Virus record (IMG/VR): IMGVR_UViG_3300017613_000835
Coordinates: 1-5,780 of that record
Length of the DNA: 5,780 nt
Strand: one strand, 5' to 3'
DNA from: a virus
Positions 1 to 5,780 of this stretch are shown here, one piece after another (position 1 is the stretch's first letter; each line of letters opens with the position of its first letter). The notes under the pieces were generated by a model. It was not told where the DNA came from. It searched no databases and saw only the letters and a program-made list of their open reading frames with translations. The position numbers were made by a program, and so were the translations under genes.

Positions 1-40
1 AAGAGGTGATATAGATGGCAAGAAATATCAGAAGACCTAG
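1..40 (+). CDS. D: 3' end of the external scaffolding protein D gene (wrap-around duplicate of 5660..5699, partial)
   Basis: Codons from nt 2 read RGDIDGKKYQKT then TAG, identical to the C-terminus of the 5172..5699 ORF. Confidence 0.85.
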   Translation, partial: RGDIDGKKYQKT

Positions 41-86
41 AAGAAAGAAAAATAAGATATATTATGTAGGTGGATATAGAGCTTAA
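15..86 (+). CDS. J: Small basic DNA-binding/packaging protein J (23 aa: MARNIRRPRRKKNKIYYVGGYRA)
   Basis: This ORF is not in the supplied track because it is too short. The ATG at 15 follows AAGAGGTGATATAG, which resembles an extended SD. About 10 of the first 14 residues are R/K. The C-terminal IYYVGGYRA resembles the conserved hydrophobic tail of phiX174 J (...ARLWYVGGQQF) and G4/alpha3 J. It sits immediately after D and before F, as in phiX174, and overlaps the D 3' end by 26 nt in another frame. Confidence 0.85.
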   Translation: MARNIRRPRRKKNKIYYVGGYRA

Positions 87-101
87 AAAGGAGTAAAAAT
101 A

Positions 102-281
102 ATGGTAAAAACAAAAAAAGGATTATTCGGTGTAGTATTCGGCTTTATAGTAGGAATAGCATCAATATTCTTAGTAAAAACAGGAGTATTAGACAAAGAA
201 ACAGTAGATTCAGTAGTAAAAGAAGCAGACTTCTTCATTAATCAATTAGATGAAAGGAGCGATAAAAGATATGGACGATAA
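102..281 (+). CDS. 59-aa small membrane protein (N-terminal single TM helix, charged C-terminal tail); candidate lysis protein
   Basis: Not in the supplied track. AAAAAGGAG lies upstream (GGAG 90-93), with spacing like that of the H and J genes. Translation: MVKTKKGLFGVVFGFIVGIASIFLVKTGVLDKETVDSVVKEADFFINQLDERSDKRYGR. It has a basic N-terminus, a hydrophobic stretch of about 19 residues (GLFGVVFGFIVGIASIFLV), and a charged tail. Codon usage matches the rest of the genome. Confidence 0.62.
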   Translation: MVKTKKGLFGVVFGFIVGIASIFLVKTGVLDKETVDSVVKEADFFINQLDERSDKRYGR

Positions 282-414
282 ATGGTATTATTATGATGAA
301 GTAGCAGAAGACCAAAAGTTATATGTATATTACGATAAGGAATTATCAGAACAAAAAGTAAATAGAGAAATAAAGAAAGAGGTGAAACATGGAATTAAAC
401 AGAACCACATATAG
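271..414 (+). CDS. Hypothetical 47-aa Tyr-rich acidic protein (MDDKWYYYDEVAEDQKLYVYYDKELSEQKVNREIKKEVKHGIKQNHI)
   Basis: This is the only open frame spanning the J-F gap after the TM ORF. It overlaps the TM ORF by 11 nt and the F start by 26 nt. The GGAG at 256-259 is 15 nt before the ATG, farther than for the other genes, which weakens the call. Confidence 0.3.
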   Translation: MDDKWYYYDEVAEDQKLYVYYDKELSEQKVNREIKKEVKHGIKQNHI

Positions 415-1663
415 TCTAGACCACCACTCGTTTAACGTCGGTGCAATAGGCTCCCTACAAACTGTCTCTTGTGTGCCAGTCGTAGCAGGTGATTCAATGC
501 AGATGGATTTTCAAGGATTGTTTAGATTAGCACCATTAGTAAGAAATTTATATTTAGATGCAAAGTTAGATTTGTTTGCGTTCTATGTACCATACAGACA
601 TATATATGGAGATGATTGGACAGCATTCATTAAAGATGGAGTAGATGAAGCAACAACATTCGGTACATATACAGCAACAGATGTTATAAGATGTACAGGA
701 GCATACCAAACAGGTACAATACCAAAATGGAATATAGCAAGTTATGCAAGAATATGGAATAGATACTTTAGACACCCAACAGATGCAAATCAGATAGATG
801 ATGACCATTTAAAAGATACAGGAGATTCAGATATAGCACAATATGGTATGAAATGCACATATTTAAAAAGAATATGGAATACAGGAGTAGATGAAGAATT
901 AGTAGATGCAGACCATATATTAGATACAACAGCAGATAAGTTAGATTTATTTGATTTAGTACAGACACAAAATAGGTTAGAAACAGAAAGACAAAGAGAA
1001 TGGTTTGGACAAAGATACGCAGATGTAATGCGTAATGCATTCGGTACAAACGTAAATATAGATGCAGATGAAAGACCAGAGTTAATAATGAGAACAAGTC
1101 AATGGTTATCAGGACATGATGTAGATGGAACAGCATCAGACAATTTAGGTAAGTATGCAGGTAAAGCTTATGGAGTAGGTGAATTATCATTTCCAATGAA
1201 ATTCTTCCCAGAGCATGGTAGTTTATGGTTAATGGCATTAATTAGATTCCCAAGTATACCAAACTACGAAAAACATTATTTATATAGTCAAGCAGAGCCA
1301 AGTTATAAAGTAATAGCAGGTGACCCAGATGTAGTAGCAAATGAACCGCCAATAGTATTAGATGTAGCAGATTATATAGAAAATGCAACATGTAATGATG
1401 CAGGATTAATACCTTATGCACAATGGTATAGAGAGCATCCAAGTTATGTTCATGACAAGTATAGAGATGTAACAGGACATCCGTTTATAAGTAAAGTAAT
1501 AGCAACAGCAGATGATAGTAGATATATTACTGCAGGAGAATATGACAATATATTCCAAACAGAGGCATTAAAACATTGGAATTTACAAGGTCATATAGGA
1601 TTAACAGCAAAAAGAGTTATACCAGACCCTAAAACTAGTATATTCGCAGGTGTGGATAGATAA
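389..1663 (+). CDS. F: Major capsid protein F (phiX174 F type, 424 aa)
   Basis: AAGAGGTGA SD lies at 377-385. The ORF is colinear over its whole length with phiX174 F as I recall it (about 426 aa). Matching blocks: VVAGDSMQMDF...FRLAPLVR vs VIAGDSFEMDA...LRLSPLRR; FAFYVPYRHIYGDDWTAFIKDGV vs FTFYVPHRHVYGEQWIKFMKDGV; DADERPELIMRTSQWLSGHDVDGT vs DADNRPLLVMRSNLWASGYDVDGT; FFPEHGSLWLMALIRFP vs FVPEHGTMFTLALVRFP; AQWYREHPSYV vs GQWYRYAPSYV. It lacks the large insertion loop of gokushovirus VP1. Confidence 0.97.
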   Translation: MELNRTTYSLDHHSFNVGAIGSLQTVSCVPVVAGDSMQMDFQGLFRLAPLVRNLYLDAKLDLFAFYVPYRHIYGDDWTAFIKDGVDEATTFGTYTATDVIRCTGAYQTGTIPKWNIASYARIWNRYFRHPTDANQIDDDHLKDTGDSDIAQYGMKCTYLKRIWNTGVDEELVDADHILDTTADKLDLFDLVQTQNRLETERQREWFGQRYADVMRNAFGTNVNIDADERPELIMRTSQWLSGHDVDGTASDNLGKYAGKAYGVGELSFPMKFFPEHGSLWLMALIRFPSIPNYEKHYLYSQAEPSYKVIAGDPDVVANEPPIVLDVADYIENATCNDAGLIPYAQWYREHPSYVHDKYRDVTGHPFISKVIATADDSRYITAGEYDNIFQTEALKHWNLQGHIGLTAKRVIPDPKTSIFAGVDR

Positions 1664-1676
1664 GAAAGGATAAAAA

Positions 1677-1904
1677 ATGACAGAACCAATAAATGAATTA
1701 AAGGAATTTAAAACAGTAAACGAAATAACAGAAGAAGTATATGATAGGTATAAATCAGGAACAGATGTAGATTATATAGATTTAAAACCAGTAGAAAAGT
1801 ATCAATGGAAAGAAGCAACAAAAGATATGTTAATATCAAAAGAATTAGTGTATGATTATGAAAATAAAAAAATAGATATATTATTTGGAGAAAAGGTAAT
1901 ATAA
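1677..1904 (+). CDS. Hypothetical 75-aa acidic protein in the F-G gap
   Basis: GAAAGGA SD lies 6 nt upstream of the ATG. Codon usage is genome-typical. The ORF fills a position that is non-coding in phiX174. I recognise no motif. Confidence 0.65.
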   Translation: MTEPINELKEFKTVNEITEEVYDRYKSGTDVDYIDLKPVEKYQWKEATKDMLISKELVYDYENKKIDILFGEKVI

Positions 1905-2563: not shown

Positions 2564-2594
2564 AACCTGGAGAGTTTACAAGGCTCTCCAGGTT
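2564..2594 (+). promoter_or_regulatory. Intergenic stem-loop 2 (AACCTGGAGAG / tttacaagg / CTCTCCAGGTT); candidate leaky terminator, mRNA stabiliser or minus-strand origin
   Basis: A perfect 11-bp inverted repeat with a 9-nt loop. It is locally much more G+C-rich than its surroundings. No T-tract follows it; it abuts the H-gene SD, so it is not a canonical intrinsic terminator. Confidence 0.65.
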
Positions 2595-2610
2595 GAAAGG
2601 AGTAATAACA

Positions 2611-3192
2611 ATGAACCCAGCAGTATTAGCATCATTAATTAAAGCAGGTGGAGATATAGCATCAACAGGAATAAATAAGATAACTGGAGTACCAACACCA
2701 AAAGGTGCATTTACACCGGGTGCAAAAGAAGGTAGTCAATATAGACAATTTTTAAATAAAGCTTATCCAGGTACAACAGTTTGGGAACAAATAGGTGCAT
2801 CAGGTGCAGGAACAGCAGGAGCAATAGGCTCAGGACATATGTCTAGTAGAGTGCAACAACAAGCTGTAGATATACAGAAAAAGAAAATGTTTGCAGAATT
2901 AGCAAATATAACAGCAAATACAGCAAAAACGTATCAAGATACAAAATTAGCAAAGAAAGTAACAGATAAAACAGAAGAAGAAAAACAAATGACACAAAAA
3001 GAAAATAGAATGAAAGAACCATTATTAGATGCACAATTAACAAGTGAAAGAGGTAGAAATCCAATGACTTATATGCAACATATAGCTGAAGGATTAGAGA
3101 GAAAAAAGATAGATTTTATAAATAAAGTTGGTGGATATTTATCAGATAGAAATATAAAAAAAATAAGAAAAAGAGGTTTGAGAAAAAATTAA
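2611..3192 (+). CDS. H: DNA pilot (minor spike) protein H homologue, short form (193 aa)
   Basis: The ATG at 2611 is preceded by GAAAGGAG (2595-2602). The track start at 2593 is a TTG lying inside the hairpin. The Gly/Ala-rich hydrophobic N-terminus MNPAVLASLIKAGGDIASTG resembles phiX H MFGAIAGGIASALAGG. YRQFLNKAYPGTTVWEQIGASGAG matches phiX [26 protein letters not shown]. A Gln/Lys/Glu-rich predicted coiled coil follows. The position between G and A matches phiX174. Confidence 0.85.
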   Translation: MNPAVLASLIKAGGDIASTGINKITGVPTPKGAFTPGAKEGSQYRQFLNKAYPGTTVWEQIGASGAGTAGAIGSGHMSSRVQQQAVDIQKKKMFAELANITANTAKTYQDTKLAKKVTDKTEEEKQMTQKENRMKEPLLDAQLTSERGRNPMTYMQHIAEGLERKKIDFINKVGGYLSDRNIKKIRKRGLRKN

Positions 3193-4704
3193 ATGTATAT
3201 GTTAAAAAAGGAAATAAAAGTGTCAGATTTATTATTTGATAAAGAATATAGATTAATAAACGCACTAAAAAGTAGAATAAGAGCATTAGAATATCAATGG
3301 AAAATAGGTAAAGATAAGTGTATAGTAACAGATAAATTAGAAGATAAATTAGATGTAGAGTTGGATTGTATATATAGTTATATCCGTCTAGTTAATAACT
3401 CCTTAAAAGTAAACAGTGAAGATAATTATAAAAAAGCTTATAAATATTACAAAGAATTACCAAAAACAATAAAAGAACATTCAGAAAAGTTGTTAGGTTA
3501 TTATTATGTAAGAAGAAATACAGATTATGATAAATTAGAAGAGCTTAAAAAAACAAAAAAAATATATTTGACTATGAAGTGGAAAACTGATAAAATAGAT
3601 AAAATGATAAAAAAAGAAGAAATGAGAGTTAAATATATGGAAAATTATAAGAAAATGTTAAAAAGTTCATGTTTAAAAGCAAGAAAATATGAATTACAAA
3701 GTAGGTTAATGTATGAAATGCAACAAAGAGTAAACGAAGGTTGGTATATAATATTTAATACACTAACAGTAAACAGTTTCAATATAAAAAATGTATTTGA
3801 TAATGGAAGTAAAGGATTTATGAAATATGTAAGAAAAGTAGATAGAGAAGTAGGAAGAAAGATATATGGTAAGTTTAGAGATATACCAGATAATGCAGAA
3901 TATCATAGATATTTTGGAGTAGTAGAAAGAGGTAGTGAAACAGGTAGATTACATATACACGTTATTCATATGGTAAAAGAACTCCCAGAGGGATGTTATG
4001 ATATGAATAGAGGAAAGCAAATACCAAGCAATAGAGAAATATCAAGATTCAAAAAATATTGGGAATATGGATTCAGTTCTCCTATAGCAGTAAGATTTAA
4101 TAGCAGTGATGCATATGGTAAGTTAGGATGGCGAGTGCCATGTAAAATGGAAGAAGATGGAAATTATAGTATAGTAGATAATGGAAGTGTAGATAAAGTA
4201 GTAGGATATATGAGTAAATATATCAATAAAGAGTTAGAAAAAGAGAAAGGAGATGAAATACCATGGAGAACGAGAATGACAAGAGGATTAGGAATGAAGA
4301 TAGTAAAGAAAATAGTACAGTCAATGACAGCGAAAGAATTAATAATGATAATGTCGTTGAAAAGGAACAAAAGGATAAAGTTGAAGGACAAAGAGATACC
4401 AATGAGCTTGTTAAGGAAAGAAGCGATAAAGATATATATGATGACGAAGAAAGAGAAAGAGAATTTGAAAGAAAATATGGTAAAAATAAAGCCACGGAAA
4501 GGTATCTTAGAAGTTATAAGGGATATAATAAGAATGAAAAAGGAGTACAGCAAAGCGAATTATACAGATATAAAGACTCTGAATATGAGAAAGATGGATG
4601 GATTTAAATTAGTAAATAAAATAAAGAAAATAGAAAAAGAGATGTTCGGAGAAAATATAATAAAGTTAGATGTATTAGGAACAACAATAGATAGTATTGT
4701 ATAA
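3193..4704 (+). CDS. A: Replication initiation protein A (HUH rolling-circle endonuclease, 503 aa)
   Basis: The ATG directly abuts the H stop codon. RCR motif I is FNTLTV (3754-3771), motif II (HUH) is GRLHIHVIH (HIH at 3952-3960), and motif III with two Tyr is VVGYMSKYINK (Tyr codons 4207-4209 and 4219-4221, residues 339/343, versus 343/347 in phiX A). Blocks matching phiX A as recalled: EGWYIIFNTLT vs DGWFIVFDTLT; TGRLHIHVIHMVKELPEG vs NGRLHFHAVHFMRTLPTG; WEYGFSSPIAVRF vs WPYGYSMPIAVRY; RTRMTRGLGMKIV vs RIRMSRNFGMKML. The N-terminal ~175 aa are Lys-rich and I cannot align them by eye. Confidence 0.95.
   Translation: MYMLKKEIKVSDLLFDKEYRLINALKSRIRALEYQWKIGKDKCIVTDKLEDKLDVELDCIYSYIRLVNNSLKVNSEDNYKKAYKYYKELPKTIKEHSEKLLGYYYVRRNTDYDKLEELKKTKKIYLTMKWKTDKIDKMIKKEEMRVKYMENYKKMLKSSCLKARKYELQSRLMYEMQQRVNEGWYIIFNTLTVNSFNIKNVFDNGSKGFMKYVRKVDREVGRKIYGKFRDIPDNAEYHRYFGVVERGSETGRLHIHVIHMVKELPEGCYDMNRGKQIPSNREISRFKKYWEYGFSSPIAVRFNSSDAYGKLGWRVPCKMEEDGNYSIVDNGSVDKVVGYMSKYINKELEKEKGDEIPWRTRMTRGLGMKIVKKIVQSMTAKELIMIMSLKRNKRIKLKDKEIPMSLLRKEAIKIYMMTKKEKENLKENMVKIKPRKGILEVIRDIIRMKKEYSKANYTDIKTLNMRKMDGFKLVNKIKKIEKEMFGENIIKLDVLGTTIDSIV
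4263..4607 (+). CDS. B: Internal scaffolding protein B-like ORF, overprinted inside gene A in the +2 frame (114 aa)
   Basis: AAAGGAG at 4246-4252 lies 10 nt before the ATG, and this SD is embedded in A coding sequence. The ORF starts about 14 codons after the catalytic Tyr motif of A and ends 97 nt before the A stop, closely mirroring phiX174 B (120 aa, nested in A, ending 85 nt before the A stop). The protein is highly charged. Its aromatic C-terminus SELYRYKDSEYEKDGWI resembles phiX B AEFYRFHDAEVNTFGYF. Caveat: the region is purine-rich, so open frames arise more easily here. Confidence 0.7.
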   Translation: MENENDKRIRNEDSKENSTVNDSERINNDNVVEKEQKDKVEGQRDTNELVKERSDKDIYDDEEREREFERKYGKNKATERYLRSYKGYNKNEKGVQQSELYRYKDSEYEKDGWI

Positions 4705-4710
4705 GGAGAG

Positions 4711-4962
4711 ATGATGCTTAATGAATTAAATATGATGGTAATACATATGAAAGTAATAGGAGAAATATTAAGTTATGGACAAATATTAGAAAATACAAAA
4801 GAATTAATAGTAGATGGAGTATTTAGAGTAGAAAGAATAGTAGATGAAATAATGATGTATATAGAATTAAATCATGATGAAAGATTAAAATATATGTGTA
4901 GTGAAAGGAATAGGAAATTATATGATACAAAAAATATTAGCGTTAGCATTAAAATTAAGTAG
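4711..4962 (+). CDS. Hypothetical 83-aa protein at the gene C position (possible DNA maturation/packaging factor)
   Basis: The ORF begins just after the A stop codon. AAGGAGAG at 4703-4710 is very close to the ATG at 4711, so the second ATG at 4714 has more typical spacing. Size and position match phiX174 C (86 aa), but I see no sequence similarity by eye. Confidence 0.5.
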   Translation: MMLNELNMMVIHMKVIGEILSYGQILENTKELIVDGVFRVERIVDEIMMYIELNHDERLKYMCSERNRKLYDTKNISVSIKIK

Positions 4963-5080
4963 GTTATATAGCTTATTCCATTACTACTTAGATGAAGAAG
5001 AAGAAAAAATGTTAAAAGAAGAAATAAAAGAAATTAAAAAGGATATAGAAAAAATAAAACAAGCAATTAAAGAGATATAG
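4922..5080 (+). CDS. Hypothetical 52-aa protein overlapping the 3' end of the C-position ORF (MIQKILALALKLSRLYSLFHYYLDEEEEKMLKEEIKEIKKDIEKIKQAIKEI)
   Basis: Not in the supplied track. A weak SD (AGGA at 4912-4915) lies 6 nt before the ATG. The N-terminal half is amphipathic/hydrophobic and the C-terminal half is a charged heptad-like helix. The stop codon lies immediately before the SD of the next small ORF, so with this ORF the C-D interval becomes fully coding. Confidence 0.35.
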   Translation: MIQKILALALKLSRLYSLFHYYLDEEEEKMLKEEIKEIKKDIEKIKQAIKEI

Positions 5081-5090
5081 AAAGGAGAGT

Positions 5091-5171
5091 ATGCTTGATA
5101 TAGTAACAATATTAGTGTTATTAGCAATATTCAATGAATTAAAAGATAAGAAAAATAGAAAGGATAGATAA
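5091..5171 (+). CDS. Possible 26-aa hydrophobic micropeptide (MLDIVTILVLLAIFNELKDKKNRKDR), translationally coupled to D
   Basis: AAAGGAGAGT lies immediately upstream, with short spacing. The TAA stop is directly followed by the D ATG (TAAATG). The hydrophobic core IVTILVLLAIF is short for a TM helix. The same DNA carries the ori-like motif, so the ORF may be incidental. Confidence 0.25.
   Translation: MLDIVTILVLLAIFNELKDKKNRKDR
5094..5115 (+). promoter_or_regulatory. Candidate viral-strand (+) origin / Rep nick site, phiX174-ori-like
   Basis: CTTGATATAGTAACAATATTAG compares with the phiX174 origin CAACTTG^ATATTAATAACACTATAGACCAC. The 8-mer CTTGATAT spanning the gpA cleavage site is exact, and TAACA and TAT(T)AG follow with two 1-nt indels. 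This is the only CTTGA I found in the window. The predicted nick lies between G5097 and A5098. Confidence 0.35.
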
Positions 5172-5699
5172 ATGGGTCTAAATTACGAAGTAGCAAAAGG
5201 TACAATGAATTTAATAGCAAATCAGTGTAAAGAAGGATGGTTAGAAACATGTTGTATAACAAAAGACGACTTTGATAAATTAACAGCACCAGTATGTTGG
5301 TTATCAGTAGATAGAAATAGAGTAACACAAACATTCTTCAGTTTATTGTACGGAACAGTAGATGCAATAGGAATACCTAGATTCACGTTACCAGCAGAGT
5401 ATATAGCATCAGCAATATCAGTTTATATAGACCCAGTAAACGTGTTAGTAGCATGTAGATTCTTTGAAAAAGTACCTACAGCAGAAGGATTAGGTAGAGG
5501 AGTAGATAACATAGAAAATGTAACGTCAAAACAGTTGTTTGGATTAGTAGTACAGTTAGTAGCAGATGTAGAAAATAGTAATGCAAGATGTTTATTCGAG
5601 AAAAAAACAGGATTAGTAGTTAGTAGGACAAAAAGAATAGAAATGTTAGAAAAAAAGAAAAGAGGTGATATAGATGGCAAGAAATATCAGAAGACCTAG
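5172..5699 (+). CDS. D: External scaffolding protein D (175 aa)
   Basis: GAAAGGA SD lies 7 nt upstream. Matches to phiX174 D as recalled: ITKDDFDKLTAPVCWLSVDRNR vs LTEDDFDFLTSNKVWIATDRSR, and LYGTVDAIGIPRFTLPAEYIASAISVYIDPVNVLVAC vs VYGTLDFVGYPRFPAPVEFIAAVIAYYVHPVNIQTAC. It is longer than phiX D (152 aa) because of a Lys-rich C-terminal extension that overlaps the J start. Confidence 0.93.
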   Translation: MGLNYEVAKGTMNLIANQCKEGWLETCCITKDDFDKLTAPVCWLSVDRNRVTQTFFSLLYGTVDAIGIPRFTLPAEYIASAISVYIDPVNVLVACRFFEKVPTAEGLGRGVDNIENVTSKQLFGLVVQLVADVENSNARCLFEKKTGLVVSRTKRIEMLEKKKRGDIDGKKYQKT

Positions 5700-5780
5700 A
5701 AGAAAGAAAAATAAGATATATTATGTAGGTGGATATAGAGCTTAAAAAGGAGTAAAAATAATGGTAAAAACAAAAAAAGG
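5660..5780. repeat. Terminal direct overlap, copy 2 (circular closure of the contig)
   Basis: Identical to nt 1-121. It also contains the first 20 nt (5761-5780) of the 59-aa TM ORF. Confidence 0.97.
5674..5745 (+). CDS. J: Protein J gene, second copy created by the terminal overlap (same gene as 15..86)
   Basis: Identical sequence to 15..86, offset by 5,659 nt. Confidence 0.85.
   Translation: MARNIRRPRRKKNKIYYVGGYRA

What the first reader, a model, noticed from the sequence alone, without database searches (positions are those of the whole stretch)
102..281. No E-like overprinted lysis gene in D; a free-standing 59-aa N-terminal-TM protein between J and F is the best lysis candidate
I read both alternative + frames of D (5172-5699). 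Stops recur every few to about 30 codons, and no ATG-initiated ORF exceeds about a dozen codons. So there is no counterpart of phiX174 E, which is 91 aa, embedded in D, and inhibits MraY through its N-terminal TM helix. Instead, the J-F interval is a short non-coding spacer in phiX174. Here it carries an SD-preceded ORF encoding a protein with a basic N-terminus, one ~19-residue TM helix and a charged tail. That is the same overall architecture as E and other single-gene lysis proteins. The genome has no recognisable endolysin or holin. A non-overlapping, unrelated small membrane protein would be an independent solution to lysis in this lineage and possibly a new cell-wall-synthesis inhibitor.
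Basis: partly seen in the sequence, partly recalled or inferred. Interest (0 to 1): 0.62.

Follow-up and report, generated by a model that had tools for sequence, protein, structure and literature searches.

The report
Conserved small membrane protein, candidate lysis gene
This tiny phiX174-like phage has no copy of the phiX174 lysis gene, but between its DNA-packaging and capsid genes it carries a real 59-residue membrane protein gene, kept in the same spot in eight related phages, which is the best but untested candidate for how these phages burst their host.

Summary
The window is a complete 5,659-nt circular microvirus of the pequenovirus group, the sister group of phiX174-like phages. Both alternative frames of gene D are full of stops, and no frame of the genome matches the phiX174 E family. 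ORF 102-281 has a strong ribosome-binding site and genome-typical codon pattern. It encodes a basic N-terminus, a 19-residue uncharged helix and a second helix.

It is not an orphan. A profile search of 1.84 billion proteins found nine members of 40-83 aa. Each lies between D and capsid gene F; J immediately precedes it wherever the upstream DNA could be read. They share a Gly-x3-Gly/Ala-x3-small helix face, and eight of nine have a positive N-flank with a negative C-tail, which predicts N-in/C-out, opposite to E.

No known family matches. One relative carries an M15 peptidase in the same slot, while others carry unrelated small membrane ORFs elsewhere. This turnover fits lysis genes. However, another relative has a non-membrane Cys-rich ORF in the slot. 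The lysis role stays inferred, at about 50%. The scan has noted analogous, non-homologous small membrane genes in other microviruses.

The parts
15..86 (+). J-like DNA-binding protein gene (23 aa, Arg/Lys-rich, C-terminal YYVGGYRA). It is the upstream neighbour of the membrane ORF and lies in the same frame, 5 codons away.
   Evidence: Similar basic ORFs ending in ..Y.GG.. precede the membrane ORF in L002, L012, L008, L016, L017 and L018. There is no Pfam hit, as the protein is too short.
87..93 (+). Shine-Dalgarno sequence AAAGGAG, 8 nt upstream of the ATG of ORF59.
   Evidence: Read directly from the sequence. L002 has AAAAAGGAG at the equivalent place.
102..281 (+). ORF59: a 59-aa single-pass membrane protein gene, the candidate lysis gene. 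It belongs to a 9-member family specific to pequenovirus-like microviruses.
   Evidence: The profile hits are P0001-P0009, and each lies in the D/J-F interval of a microvirus contig.
102..119 (+). Basic N-terminal flank (MVKTKK, net +3), predicted to be cytoplasmic.
   Evidence: N-flanks are +2 to +8 in all 9 members.
120..176 (+). Transmembrane helix, residues 7-25 (GLFGVVFGFIVGIASIFLV). G10, G14 and G18 form a Gly-x3-Gly-x3-Gly face.
   Evidence: G10 is invariant, position 14 is Gly in 8 of 9 and Ala in 1, and position 18 is Ser/Thr/Gly/Gln. The AlphaFold model has a helix at 5-26, with pLDDT block means of 65 (residues 1-10), 86 (11-20) and 71 (21-30).
177..281 (+). C-terminal tail, residues 26-59, plus the stop codon. 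It is a predicted helix (32-57), charged and amphipathic, and predicted to lie outside the cytoplasmic membrane.
   Evidence: C-tails have net charge -1 to -8 in 8 of 9 members and 0 in P0004, with a loosely conserved P-x-V-x-D-[VF]-x-[DE] start in relatives.
250..414 (+). Second small hydrophilic ORF (54 aa). It more likely starts at ATG 271 (47 aa), which has the SD AAAGGAG at 253-259. It overlaps the 3' end of ORF59 and the 5' end of F.
   Evidence: Non-homologous ORFs of 49 and 53 aa occupy the same place in L002 and L016. It has a weak Choline_bind_3-like match (E=0.017, below the cut-off).
389..1663 (+). Major capsid protein F, the downstream boundary of the slot.
   Evidence: Pfam Phage_F 7e-57 and phrog_514 1e-80.
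5172..5699 (+). External scaffolding protein D, with no overprinted ORF.
   Evidence: Pfam gpD 8.3e-19. Alternative frames carry 31 and 15 stops. No PF04517 match.
5091..5171 (+). Rival candidate: a 26-aa ORF (hydrophobic N-terminal half, basic tail) with a strong SD, ending directly before the D start codon (stop 5169-5171, ATG 5172).
   Evidence: It has no counterpart in L002, L016, L012 or L020.

Best explanation
ORF 102-281 is a real late-operon gene of a pequenovirus-like microvirus. It encodes a single-pass cytoplasmic-membrane protein, with its basic N-terminus inside and an amphipathic, charged C-terminal helix outside. It belongs to a previously unnamed nine-member family that sits in the D-F interval, directly after J in every member whose upstream sequence could be read.

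Its most likely job is host lysis as a single-gene lysis (Sgl) protein. It would accumulate in the membrane late in infection. Its conserved Gly-x3-Gly/Ala-x3-small helix face would pack against either a membrane enzyme of the lipid II pathway (type I, a 'protein antibiotic') or other copies of itself or a host factor (type II, like MS2 L). The host's own autolysis would then release the phage, since the genome has no wall-degrading enzyme.

Shown: the gene is real and conserved, its position is conserved, it has membrane-helix features and a charge asymmetry, the genome has no E and no muralytic gene, and an M15 peptidase occupies the same slot in one relative.

Inferred: the topology, the lysis function and any target.
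For: (1) Coding signals: a strong SD, genome-typical codon-position bias, and a shuffle probability of 0.0044.

(2) Conservation: a syntenic 59-aa homologue exists in Eel River basin pequenovirus. A profile of four members, searched against 1.84 billion proteins, returned only nine proteins of 40-83 aa. All five new hits lie in microvirus contigs, four between gpD/J and Phage_F and one (L015, a 525-nt fragment) directly before F. An HMM of the nine hit only these ORFs among 1,035 ORFs of all loci. Members are spread over capsid lineages only 40-60% identical.

(3) Membrane features: uncharged cores of 19-32 residues, N-flanks of +2 to +8, and C-tails of 0 to -8. G10 is invariant and there is a small-residue i/i+4/i+8 face. 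The model has helices at 5-26 and 32-57.

There is no E and no lysin or holin. ORF59 is one of only two small hydrophobic + strand ORFs in the genome, and the only conserved one.

(5) Slot and turnover: relative L006 has a Peptidase_M15_3 gene (E=9e-19) exactly between J and F. Such peptidases are the proposed lysis enzymes of other microviruses (PMC3394797, PMC9239249). L007, L009 and L011 lack the family but carry unrelated free-standing small TM ORFs in the H-A, D-J and J-F gaps. This is the kind of positional and sequence turnover seen for lysis genes of small phages.
Against: There is no functional data and the host is unknown.

The strong SD within the abundant late operon is unlike the weakly expressed phiX174 E. 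This comparison rests on my own knowledge.

The J-F slot is not lysis-specific. L020, whose D protein is 51% identical to the window's, has a Cys-rich non-membrane 77-aa ORF there, and no free-standing TM ORF anywhere.

Several relatives (L003, L004, L010, L013) have neither the family nor an obvious substitute.

Only about 10% of TM-bearing candidate sgl ORFs from ssRNA phages lysed E. coli when tested (bioRxiv 10.1101/2023.10.16.562596).

The window's copy is the most divergent member but one. It lacks the Pro after the helix, and the Ser at position 18 is replaced by Gly.
Confidence: 0.5

Rival explanations
1. ORF59 is a real membrane protein but not the lysis effector. It would be an accessory factor comparable to phiX174 K (a small, non-essential membrane protein that modulates burst size). 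Alternatively it could be a superinfection-exclusion or envelope-modifying protein made in large amounts from the late operon.
For: The strong SD and the position among highly expressed structural genes fit an abundant accessory protein better than a potent toxin. The family is dispensable on evolutionary time, being absent from L006, L007, L009, L010 and L020. The J-F slot hosts assorted accessory ORFs.
Against: Lysis would then have no conserved candidate at all in the window or in L002. A separate conserved small ORF already sits in the K-like position (4901-5080; L002 1363-1524; L016 1703-1858). The M15 peptidase in the same slot in L006 points to lysis.
Confidence: 0.25
2. ORF59 is a holin- or pinholin-like pore former. 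It oligomerises through its glycine-zipper face and collapses the membrane potential. Wall breakdown is then left to host autolysins or to an unrecognised partner, such as the overlapping downstream ORF at 250/271-414.
For: The Gly-x3-Gly-x3-Gly/Ser face is the motif type that lines pinholin channels (my own knowledge). The downstream ORF looks translationally coupled and has a weak cell-wall-binding-repeat-like segment (E=0.017). A small ORF follows the TM ORF in the window, L002 and L016.
Against: The genome has no endolysin. The second ORFs are not homologous to each other and are absent in L012, L018 and the P0008 contigs. The Choline_bind_3 match is below the cut-off. This rival overlaps the best explanation, because it is still a lysis role.
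Confidence: 0.12
3. Lysis is done by another element of this genome, and ORF59 has an unrelated role. The most likely alternative is the 26-aa ORF at 5091-5171, which has an N-terminal hydrophobic segment and a basic tail, the same polarity as E, and ends directly before the D start codon.
For: It has a strong SD (GAAAGGAGAGT) and a Kyte-Doolittle value of 2.1-2.4 over its first 15-17 residues. Its charge polarity resembles E, and it lies next to D.
Against: It is found only in this genome, with no counterpart in L002, L016, L012 or L020. At 26 aa it is shorter than the 37-residue LysM, the shortest lysis protein I found in the papers read here (PMC12506998). The stretch was also read as an origin-like DNA motif by another note (e1-3443768), so it may not be coding.
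Confidence: 0.08
4. The ORF is not translated. The J-F interval would be a non-coding DNA or RNA element that happens to be open.
For: In phiX174 the J-F interval is a short non-coding spacer (my own knowledge).
Against: Protein-level conservation across nine lineages despite diverged DNA, an SD, codon bias, and a chance probability of 0.0044.
Confidence: 0.03

Closest known systems
phiX174 lysis protein E (Pfam PF04517 Microvir_lysis; inhibitor of MraY, requires SlyD)
   Same: Both are small proteins of a phiX-plan microvirus that lacks any muralytic enzyme. Both have an N-terminal single membrane helix as the main feature, followed by a charged tail. E is the only lysis protein known in the family Microviridae.
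   Different: There is no sequence similarity. ORF59 is free-standing in the J-F gap rather than overprinted in D. Its predicted orientation is opposite: N-in here, whereas the N-terminal motif of E acts at the extracellular face of MraY (PMC11812184). It has a strong rather than a weak ribosome-binding site. Its target is unknown.
MS2 L and 'L-like' (type II) single-gene lysis proteins of ssRNA phages
   Same: The domain order is the same: a basic N-terminal segment, a hydrophobic helix and a variable C-terminus, with N-in orientation. Five of the nine family members have a Leu/Ile-Ser pair inside the helix at the same column.
   Different: The helix is N-proximal, not C-terminal. The window's copy has Val-Gly at that column. 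The significance of the LS motif is itself questioned (bioRxiv 10.1101/2023.10.16.562596). No homology exists, and the phage type differs (ssDNA).
LysM/SglM of ssRNA phage M (37 aa, wedges into MurJ; PMC12506998)
   Same: It is a very small membrane-embedded helix followed by a second helix along the membrane. The AlphaFold model of ORF59 also shows two helices. It shows that such peptides can be specific enzyme blockers.
   Different: No sequence similarity. The host and target of ORF59 are unknown, and ORF59 is larger.
Eel River basin pequenovirus gp5 (YP_009126957.1, 'hypothetical protein')
   Same: It is a true homologue: 59 aa, the same position after J, the same motif.
   Different: It is only about 19-27% identical overall, depending on the alignment (42% over the 19-residue helix core). 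It has a far more basic N-flank (+8) and a more acidic tail (-8). It is unannotated as to function.
Peptidase M15_3 accessory genes of microviruses (PMC3394797, PMC9239249)
   Same: One occupies the same J-F slot in relative L006. These peptidases are the proposed lysis function in microviruses without E.
   Different: It is an enzyme of 173 aa, unrelated in sequence and mechanism.

Membership tests
phiX174 E / Pfam PF04517 Microvir_lysis | Sequence match to the family profile | tested here: not met
   No Pfam hit for ORF59 at E<=0.1. A six-frame search of the whole genome with PF04517 found no match at E<=10.
phiX174 E / Pfam PF04517 Microvir_lysis | Gene overprinted in an alternative frame of scaffolding gene D | tested here: not met
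   The alternative frames of D have 31 and 15 stops, and the longest ATG ORF is 11-12 codons. ORF59 lies in the J-F interval.
phiX174 E / Pfam PF04517 Microvir_lysis | N-terminal TM helix with N-out/C-in orientation and an essential intramembrane proline | tested here: not met
   An N-terminal helix is present, but the flank charges (+3 at the N-flank, -1 in the tail; family +2..+8 and 0..-8) predict N-in. The window's helix has no proline. The orientation is predicted, not measured.
phiX174 E / Pfam PF04517 Microvir_lysis | Inhibits MraY and depends on SlyD | not testable with these tools
   The host is unknown. This needs genetics or biochemistry.
Single-gene lysis proteins (Sgl), functional class | Small phage genome without a muralytic enzyme or holin-endolysin pair | tested here: met
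   Pfam and PHROGs scans of 10 ORFs found no lysin or holin.
Single-gene lysis proteins (Sgl), functional class | Small protein with a membrane helix and plausible translation signals | tested here: met
Single-gene lysis proteins (Sgl), functional class | Expression alone causes host lysis | not testable with these tools
   This is experimental. The base rate for TM-bearing candidates in E. coli is about 10% (bioRxiv 10.1101/2023.10.16.562596).
L-like (type II) Sgl | Basic N-domain, hydrophobic domain, conserved Leu-Ser dipeptide, variable C-domain | tested here: inconclusive
   The basic N-flank and the hydrophobic domain are present in all 9 members. Leu/Ile-Ser occurs at one column in 5 of 9, but the window has Val-Gly there.
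Holin / pinholin | Works with a phage endolysin encoded nearby | tested here: not met
   No endolysin in the window. The one relative with a peptidase in the slot (L006) lacks the TM family.
Holin / pinholin | Self-association into a membrane pore | tested here: inconclusive
   A glycine-zipper-like face is present. The four-copy complex prediction gave no verdict and is not counted either way.
Unnamed pequenovirus J-proximal membrane protein family (defined here: P0001-P0009) | Profile match with the motif K-[KR]-x-x-[LIF]-[FIL]-G-x3-[GA]-x-[IV]-[ILV]-[STGQ] | tested here: met
   ORF59 scores 2.2e-15 against the 4-member profile (which includes itself) in the 1.84-billion-protein library. It scores 1.7e-16 against the 9-member HMM.
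Unnamed pequenovirus J-proximal membrane protein family (defined here: P0001-P0009) | Located after J and before F in a microvirus that encodes external scaffolding protein D | tested here: met
   Window. Relatives L002, L008, L012, L016, L017, L018 and the Logan contigs.

The most novel reading that the evidence does not exclude
The family is a second, independently evolved 'protein antibiotic' of the Microviridae. It would be an N-in single-pass peptide whose conserved Gly-x3-Gly-x3-small face binds and blocks a membrane step of cell-wall precursor synthesis or export (MraY, MurJ, the undecaprenyl-phosphate cycle or similar) in a low-GC, non-enterobacterial host. Its nine natural variants would map a new druggable surface.
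Probability: 0.2. Interest if true: 0.75.

Novelty: new member of a known kind. Interest (0 to 1): 0.5.

Why it matters
phiX174 E is the only lysis protein known for any microvirus. How the many microviruses without E leave their hosts is an open question (PMC3394797, PMC9239249). This work turns one suspicious ORF into a defined nine-member family with a conserved motif, a fixed genomic address and a natural replacement by a peptidase in one relative. That set can be synthesised and screened directly. Each validated single-gene lysis protein so far has pointed to a vulnerable step of cell-wall synthesis, so a hit would have value for antibiotic-target discovery. A negative result would also help, because it would send the search to overprinted candidates such as those noted in L010 and L020.

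Tried and rejected
- Single-sequence search of ORF59 in the 5.8-billion-protein index found only itself. tblastn against 50,697 phage records found nothing.
- Pfam, PHROGs and PDB-sequence profile searches of the family found nothing significant.
- The ESM Atlas feature search gave only hits below 0.9, with DUF3042 at 0.85, so it was treated as noise.
- Complex prediction with four copies of ORF59 (alignment A3) gave no verdict (score 0.01). It is not used as evidence in either direction.
- The scan of bacterial genomes for relatives of capsid protein F found none, so there is no prophage-based host assignment.
- The search for more M15-peptidase-bearing relatives found only L006 itself.
- The word-index search with D added only one further lineage, L020.
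- The promoter and terminator scan was uninformative: 24 promoter-like sites against 34 expected, and no + strand terminator.
- The TM ORFs of L007, L009 and L011 were tested as distant family members and rejected (HMM E=7.5 for L007; L009 and L011 not reported at E<=10).
- The second small ORFs (window 250-414, L002 2509-2658, L016 2767-2928, L008 1252-1392) were tested for mutual homology. None was significant; the best was E=0.036.
- dN/dS was not attempted because all family pairs are too diverged (9-29% identity to the window's copy, 16-27%).
- Bryson et al. 2015, the original pequenovirus paper, is not in the searchable library, so I could not check what it says about gp5.

Full report
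**What the window is**

Bases 1-121 repeat exactly at 5660-5780. The record is a virus contig with direct terminal repeats, rated 100% complete. It is therefore a circle of 5,659 nt with 29.9% G+C.

All large ORFs lie on the + strand, in the phiX174 order:
- J-like, 15-86
- F, 389-1663 (Pfam Phage_F 7e-57)
- a G-position gene, 1918-2538
- H, 2593-3192 (Microvir_H, E=1.8e-4; 21.4 bits, just under Pfam's 22.7-bit cut-off)
- A, 3193-4704 (phrog_713 2.9e-82)
- D, 5172-5699 (gpD 8.3e-19)

The only similar public phage genome is Eel River basin pequenovirus NC_026665, at 70% nucleotide identity over 39% of the genome. Kirchberger et al. place the proposed Pequenovirus taxon with the Bullavirinae in their Suborder I / Family 1. 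That group is defined by the spike and the external scaffolding protein (PMC9239249).

**Checking the observation**

- The two alternative frames of D carry 31 and 15 stops. Their longest ATG-initiated ORFs are 11 and 12 codons.
- A six-frame search with the E family profile PF04517 finds nothing at E<=10.
- No ORF matches a lysin or holin family.
- ORF 102-281 starts with ATG, 8 nt after AAAGGAG.
- Its codon-position composition is the G-rich position 1 and A-rich position 3 pattern of the known genes.
- An ORF that long appeared in 0.44% of shuffles of the interval.
- The product has a +3 N-flank, a 19-residue uncharged core (residues 7-25, hydropathy maximum 2.65) and a charged tail.

The finding omits one thing: a second short hydrophobic ORF at 5091-5171 (26 aa).

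**Is it a gene? Comparative evidence**

Eel River pequenovirus has a 59-aa ORF in the same place after J, with a basic N-terminus, a helix and an acidic tail. BLASTP aligns the helix cores at 42% identity. Capsid-based scans gave 12 related loci. Two more of these, L012 and L008, carry recognisable homologues in the J-F interval.

A profile of these four, searched against 1.84 billion representative proteins, returned nine proteins and nothing else at E<=1e-3. All are 40-83 aa. All five new ones are encoded in microvirus contigs. Four lie between gpD/J and Phage_F, and one (L015, a 525-nt fragment) lies directly before F, with a non-J-like partial ORF upstream. This is an independent check, because the search knew nothing about genomic position.

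An HMM of the nine, run against all 1,035 ORFs of every locus on both strands, hit only these J-F ORFs. The profile search in the 5.8-billion-protein index found the same nine.

On a capsid tree the members fall in at least three lineages: window+L002, L012+L008+L018, and L016. Their capsids are only 40-60% identical to the window's. The gene has therefore been kept for a long time. I put the probability that it is a real protein-coding gene at about 0.95.

**Anatomy of the family**

- All members have a Lys/Arg-rich N-flank (+2 to +8) ending in K-[KR]-x, followed by an uncharged core.
- Gly10 (window numbering) is invariant. Position 14 is Gly in eight members and Ala in one. Position 18 is Ser, Thr, Gly or Gln.
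- These three positions lie on one helix face (i, i+4, i+8). In the window they read G-x3-G-x3-G.
- Most relatives continue with [IL]-F-x-P and an acidic amphipathic segment. The window lacks the Pro.
- Tails have net charge -1 to -8 in eight of the nine members and 0 in P0004.
- By the positive-inside rule the N-terminus is cytoplasmic and the tail is outside.
- AlphaFold with the nine-row alignment gives helices at 5-26 and 32-57, with mean pLDDT 72.
- A conserved small-residue face in a single-pass helix is a helix-packing surface. The partner could be a host membrane protein or other copies of the protein, and the data do not say which. A four-copy complex prediction returned no verdict.

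**Evidence bearing on function**

For a lysis role:
Lysis is the one unassigned essential function.
- Known lysis proteins of small phages are membrane peptides, apart from Q-beta A2 (bioRxiv 10.1101/2023.10.16.562596; PMC12506998).
- ORF59 is the only conserved small membrane ORF in the window, and its homologue is the only small membrane ORF found in L002.
- In relative L006 the J-F slot holds a Peptidase_M15_3 gene (E=9e-19). That enzyme is proposed as the lysis function of other microviruses (PMC3394797).
- Relatives without the family have unrelated free-standing small TM ORFs elsewhere: L007 in the H-A gap, L009 between D and J, and L011 after J. Others have overprinted candidates: L010 inside D and L020 inside A. 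This turnover is typical of lysis genes in small phages.

Against a lysis role:
- L020, a fairly close relative (D 51% identical), has a Cys-rich non-membrane ORF in the slot. The slot is therefore a general accessory-gene site.
- Second, mutually unrelated hydrophilic ORFs accompany the TM gene in three genomes.
- The ribosome-binding site is strong, unlike that of E.
- Only about one in ten TM-bearing candidates lysed E. coli in the published ssRNA-phage screen.

I put the lysis role at about 0.5 as the primary lysis effector, plus about 0.12 for a holin-like variant of it.

**Comparison with known proteins**

ORF59 is not a member of the E family. There is no profile match, it is not overprinted in D, and its predicted orientation is opposite to that of E, whose N-terminal Arg-Trp-x-x-Trp motif acts on the extracellular face of MraY (PMC11812184). 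In domain order it is closer to L-like Sgls (basic N-terminus, hydrophobic segment, variable tail). However, the Leu-Ser motif is not conserved in the window, and its meaning is disputed anyway. The only true relatives are eight unannotated or 'hypothetical' proteins, including Eel River pequenovirus gp5.

**Verdict**

The finding is real and is strengthened at the level of 'this is a conserved gene'. The functional claim remains a well-motivated hypothesis. As a kind of thing, a small membrane protein as candidate single-gene lysis factor of a tiny phage, it is known. As a family it is new and unnamed.

The scan's notebook shows analogous, non-homologous small membrane or lipoprotein genes next to capsid genes in several other microviruses. 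Those notes are unchecked and are not used as evidence here, but they show that the theme recurs.

Noticed in passing
window 250-414 (probable start 271): The ORF that overlaps the end of ORF59 and the start of F has its own SD (AAAGGAG, 253-259), placed for the second ATG at 271, which would give 47 aa. It contains KWYYYDE, a weak match to the choline-binding/cell-wall-binding repeat (Choline_bind_3, E=0.017, below the cut-off). Unrelated small hydrophilic ORFs sit at the same place in L002 (2509-2658) and L016 (2767-2928).
   Followed up: partly
window 5091-5171: A 26-aa ORF with a strong SD, a hydrophobic N-terminal half and a basic tail (the same polarity as E), ending directly before the D start codon. 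It has no counterpart in L002, L016, L012 or L020. Another note read the same stretch as an origin-like motif.
   Followed up: partly
window 4901-5080; L002 1363-1524; L016 1703-1858: A conserved small ORF overlaps the end of the C-position gene. It has an amphipathic N-terminal segment, an acidic run, then a Lys/Glu-rich helix. It lies between the C-position gene and D, overlapping the former's 3' end. The likely start in the window is the internal Met (residue 8).
   Followed up: partly
L006 101-622: This relative carries a 173-aa Peptidase_M15_3 gene (E=9e-19) exactly between J and F. It has no N-terminal signal or TM segment and no accompanying free-standing TM ORF. How such an enzyme would reach the wall is unexplained.
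   Followed up: partly
L007 69-191; L009 2876-3007; L011 2678-2824: Relatives that lack the family have other free-standing small ORFs with a basic N-terminus and one hydrophobic helix, in the H-A gap, between D and J, and after J. None is detectably homologous to the family.
   Followed up: partly
L020 1548-1748 and 3504-3737: A relative with D 51% identical has a Cys-rich 77-aa non-membrane ORF in the J-F slot. It also has a 66-aa two-helix hydrophobic ORF with a good SD overprinted inside gene A, upstream of the nested B-like ORF. The latter is a possible overprinted lysis gene.
   Followed up: no
L010 3843-4037: A 64-aa ATG-initiated hydrophobic ORF lies in an alternative frame of D in a 53% G+C relative that has no TM ORF in its J-F gap. 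It is E-like in position, but could be chance in a G+C-richer genome.
   Followed up: no
L016 2362-2556: A 64-aa ORF with two CxxC pairs lies between D and J, and J overlaps its end. L020 also has small Cys-rich ORFs (3504-3737, 5070-5282). These may be small zinc-binding accessory proteins in this clade.
   Followed up: no
window 15-281: J and ORF59 are in the same reading frame, separated by the J stop codon (TAA, 84-86) and five codons. Read-through would fuse them. In L002 the two genes are in different frames, so this is probably coincidence.
   Followed up: partly
window 1677-1904; L002 4018-4209; L016 4266-4424; L020 5070-5282: A small ORF also fills the F-G interval in the window and in several relatives. 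I did not test these ORFs for homology.
   Followed up: no
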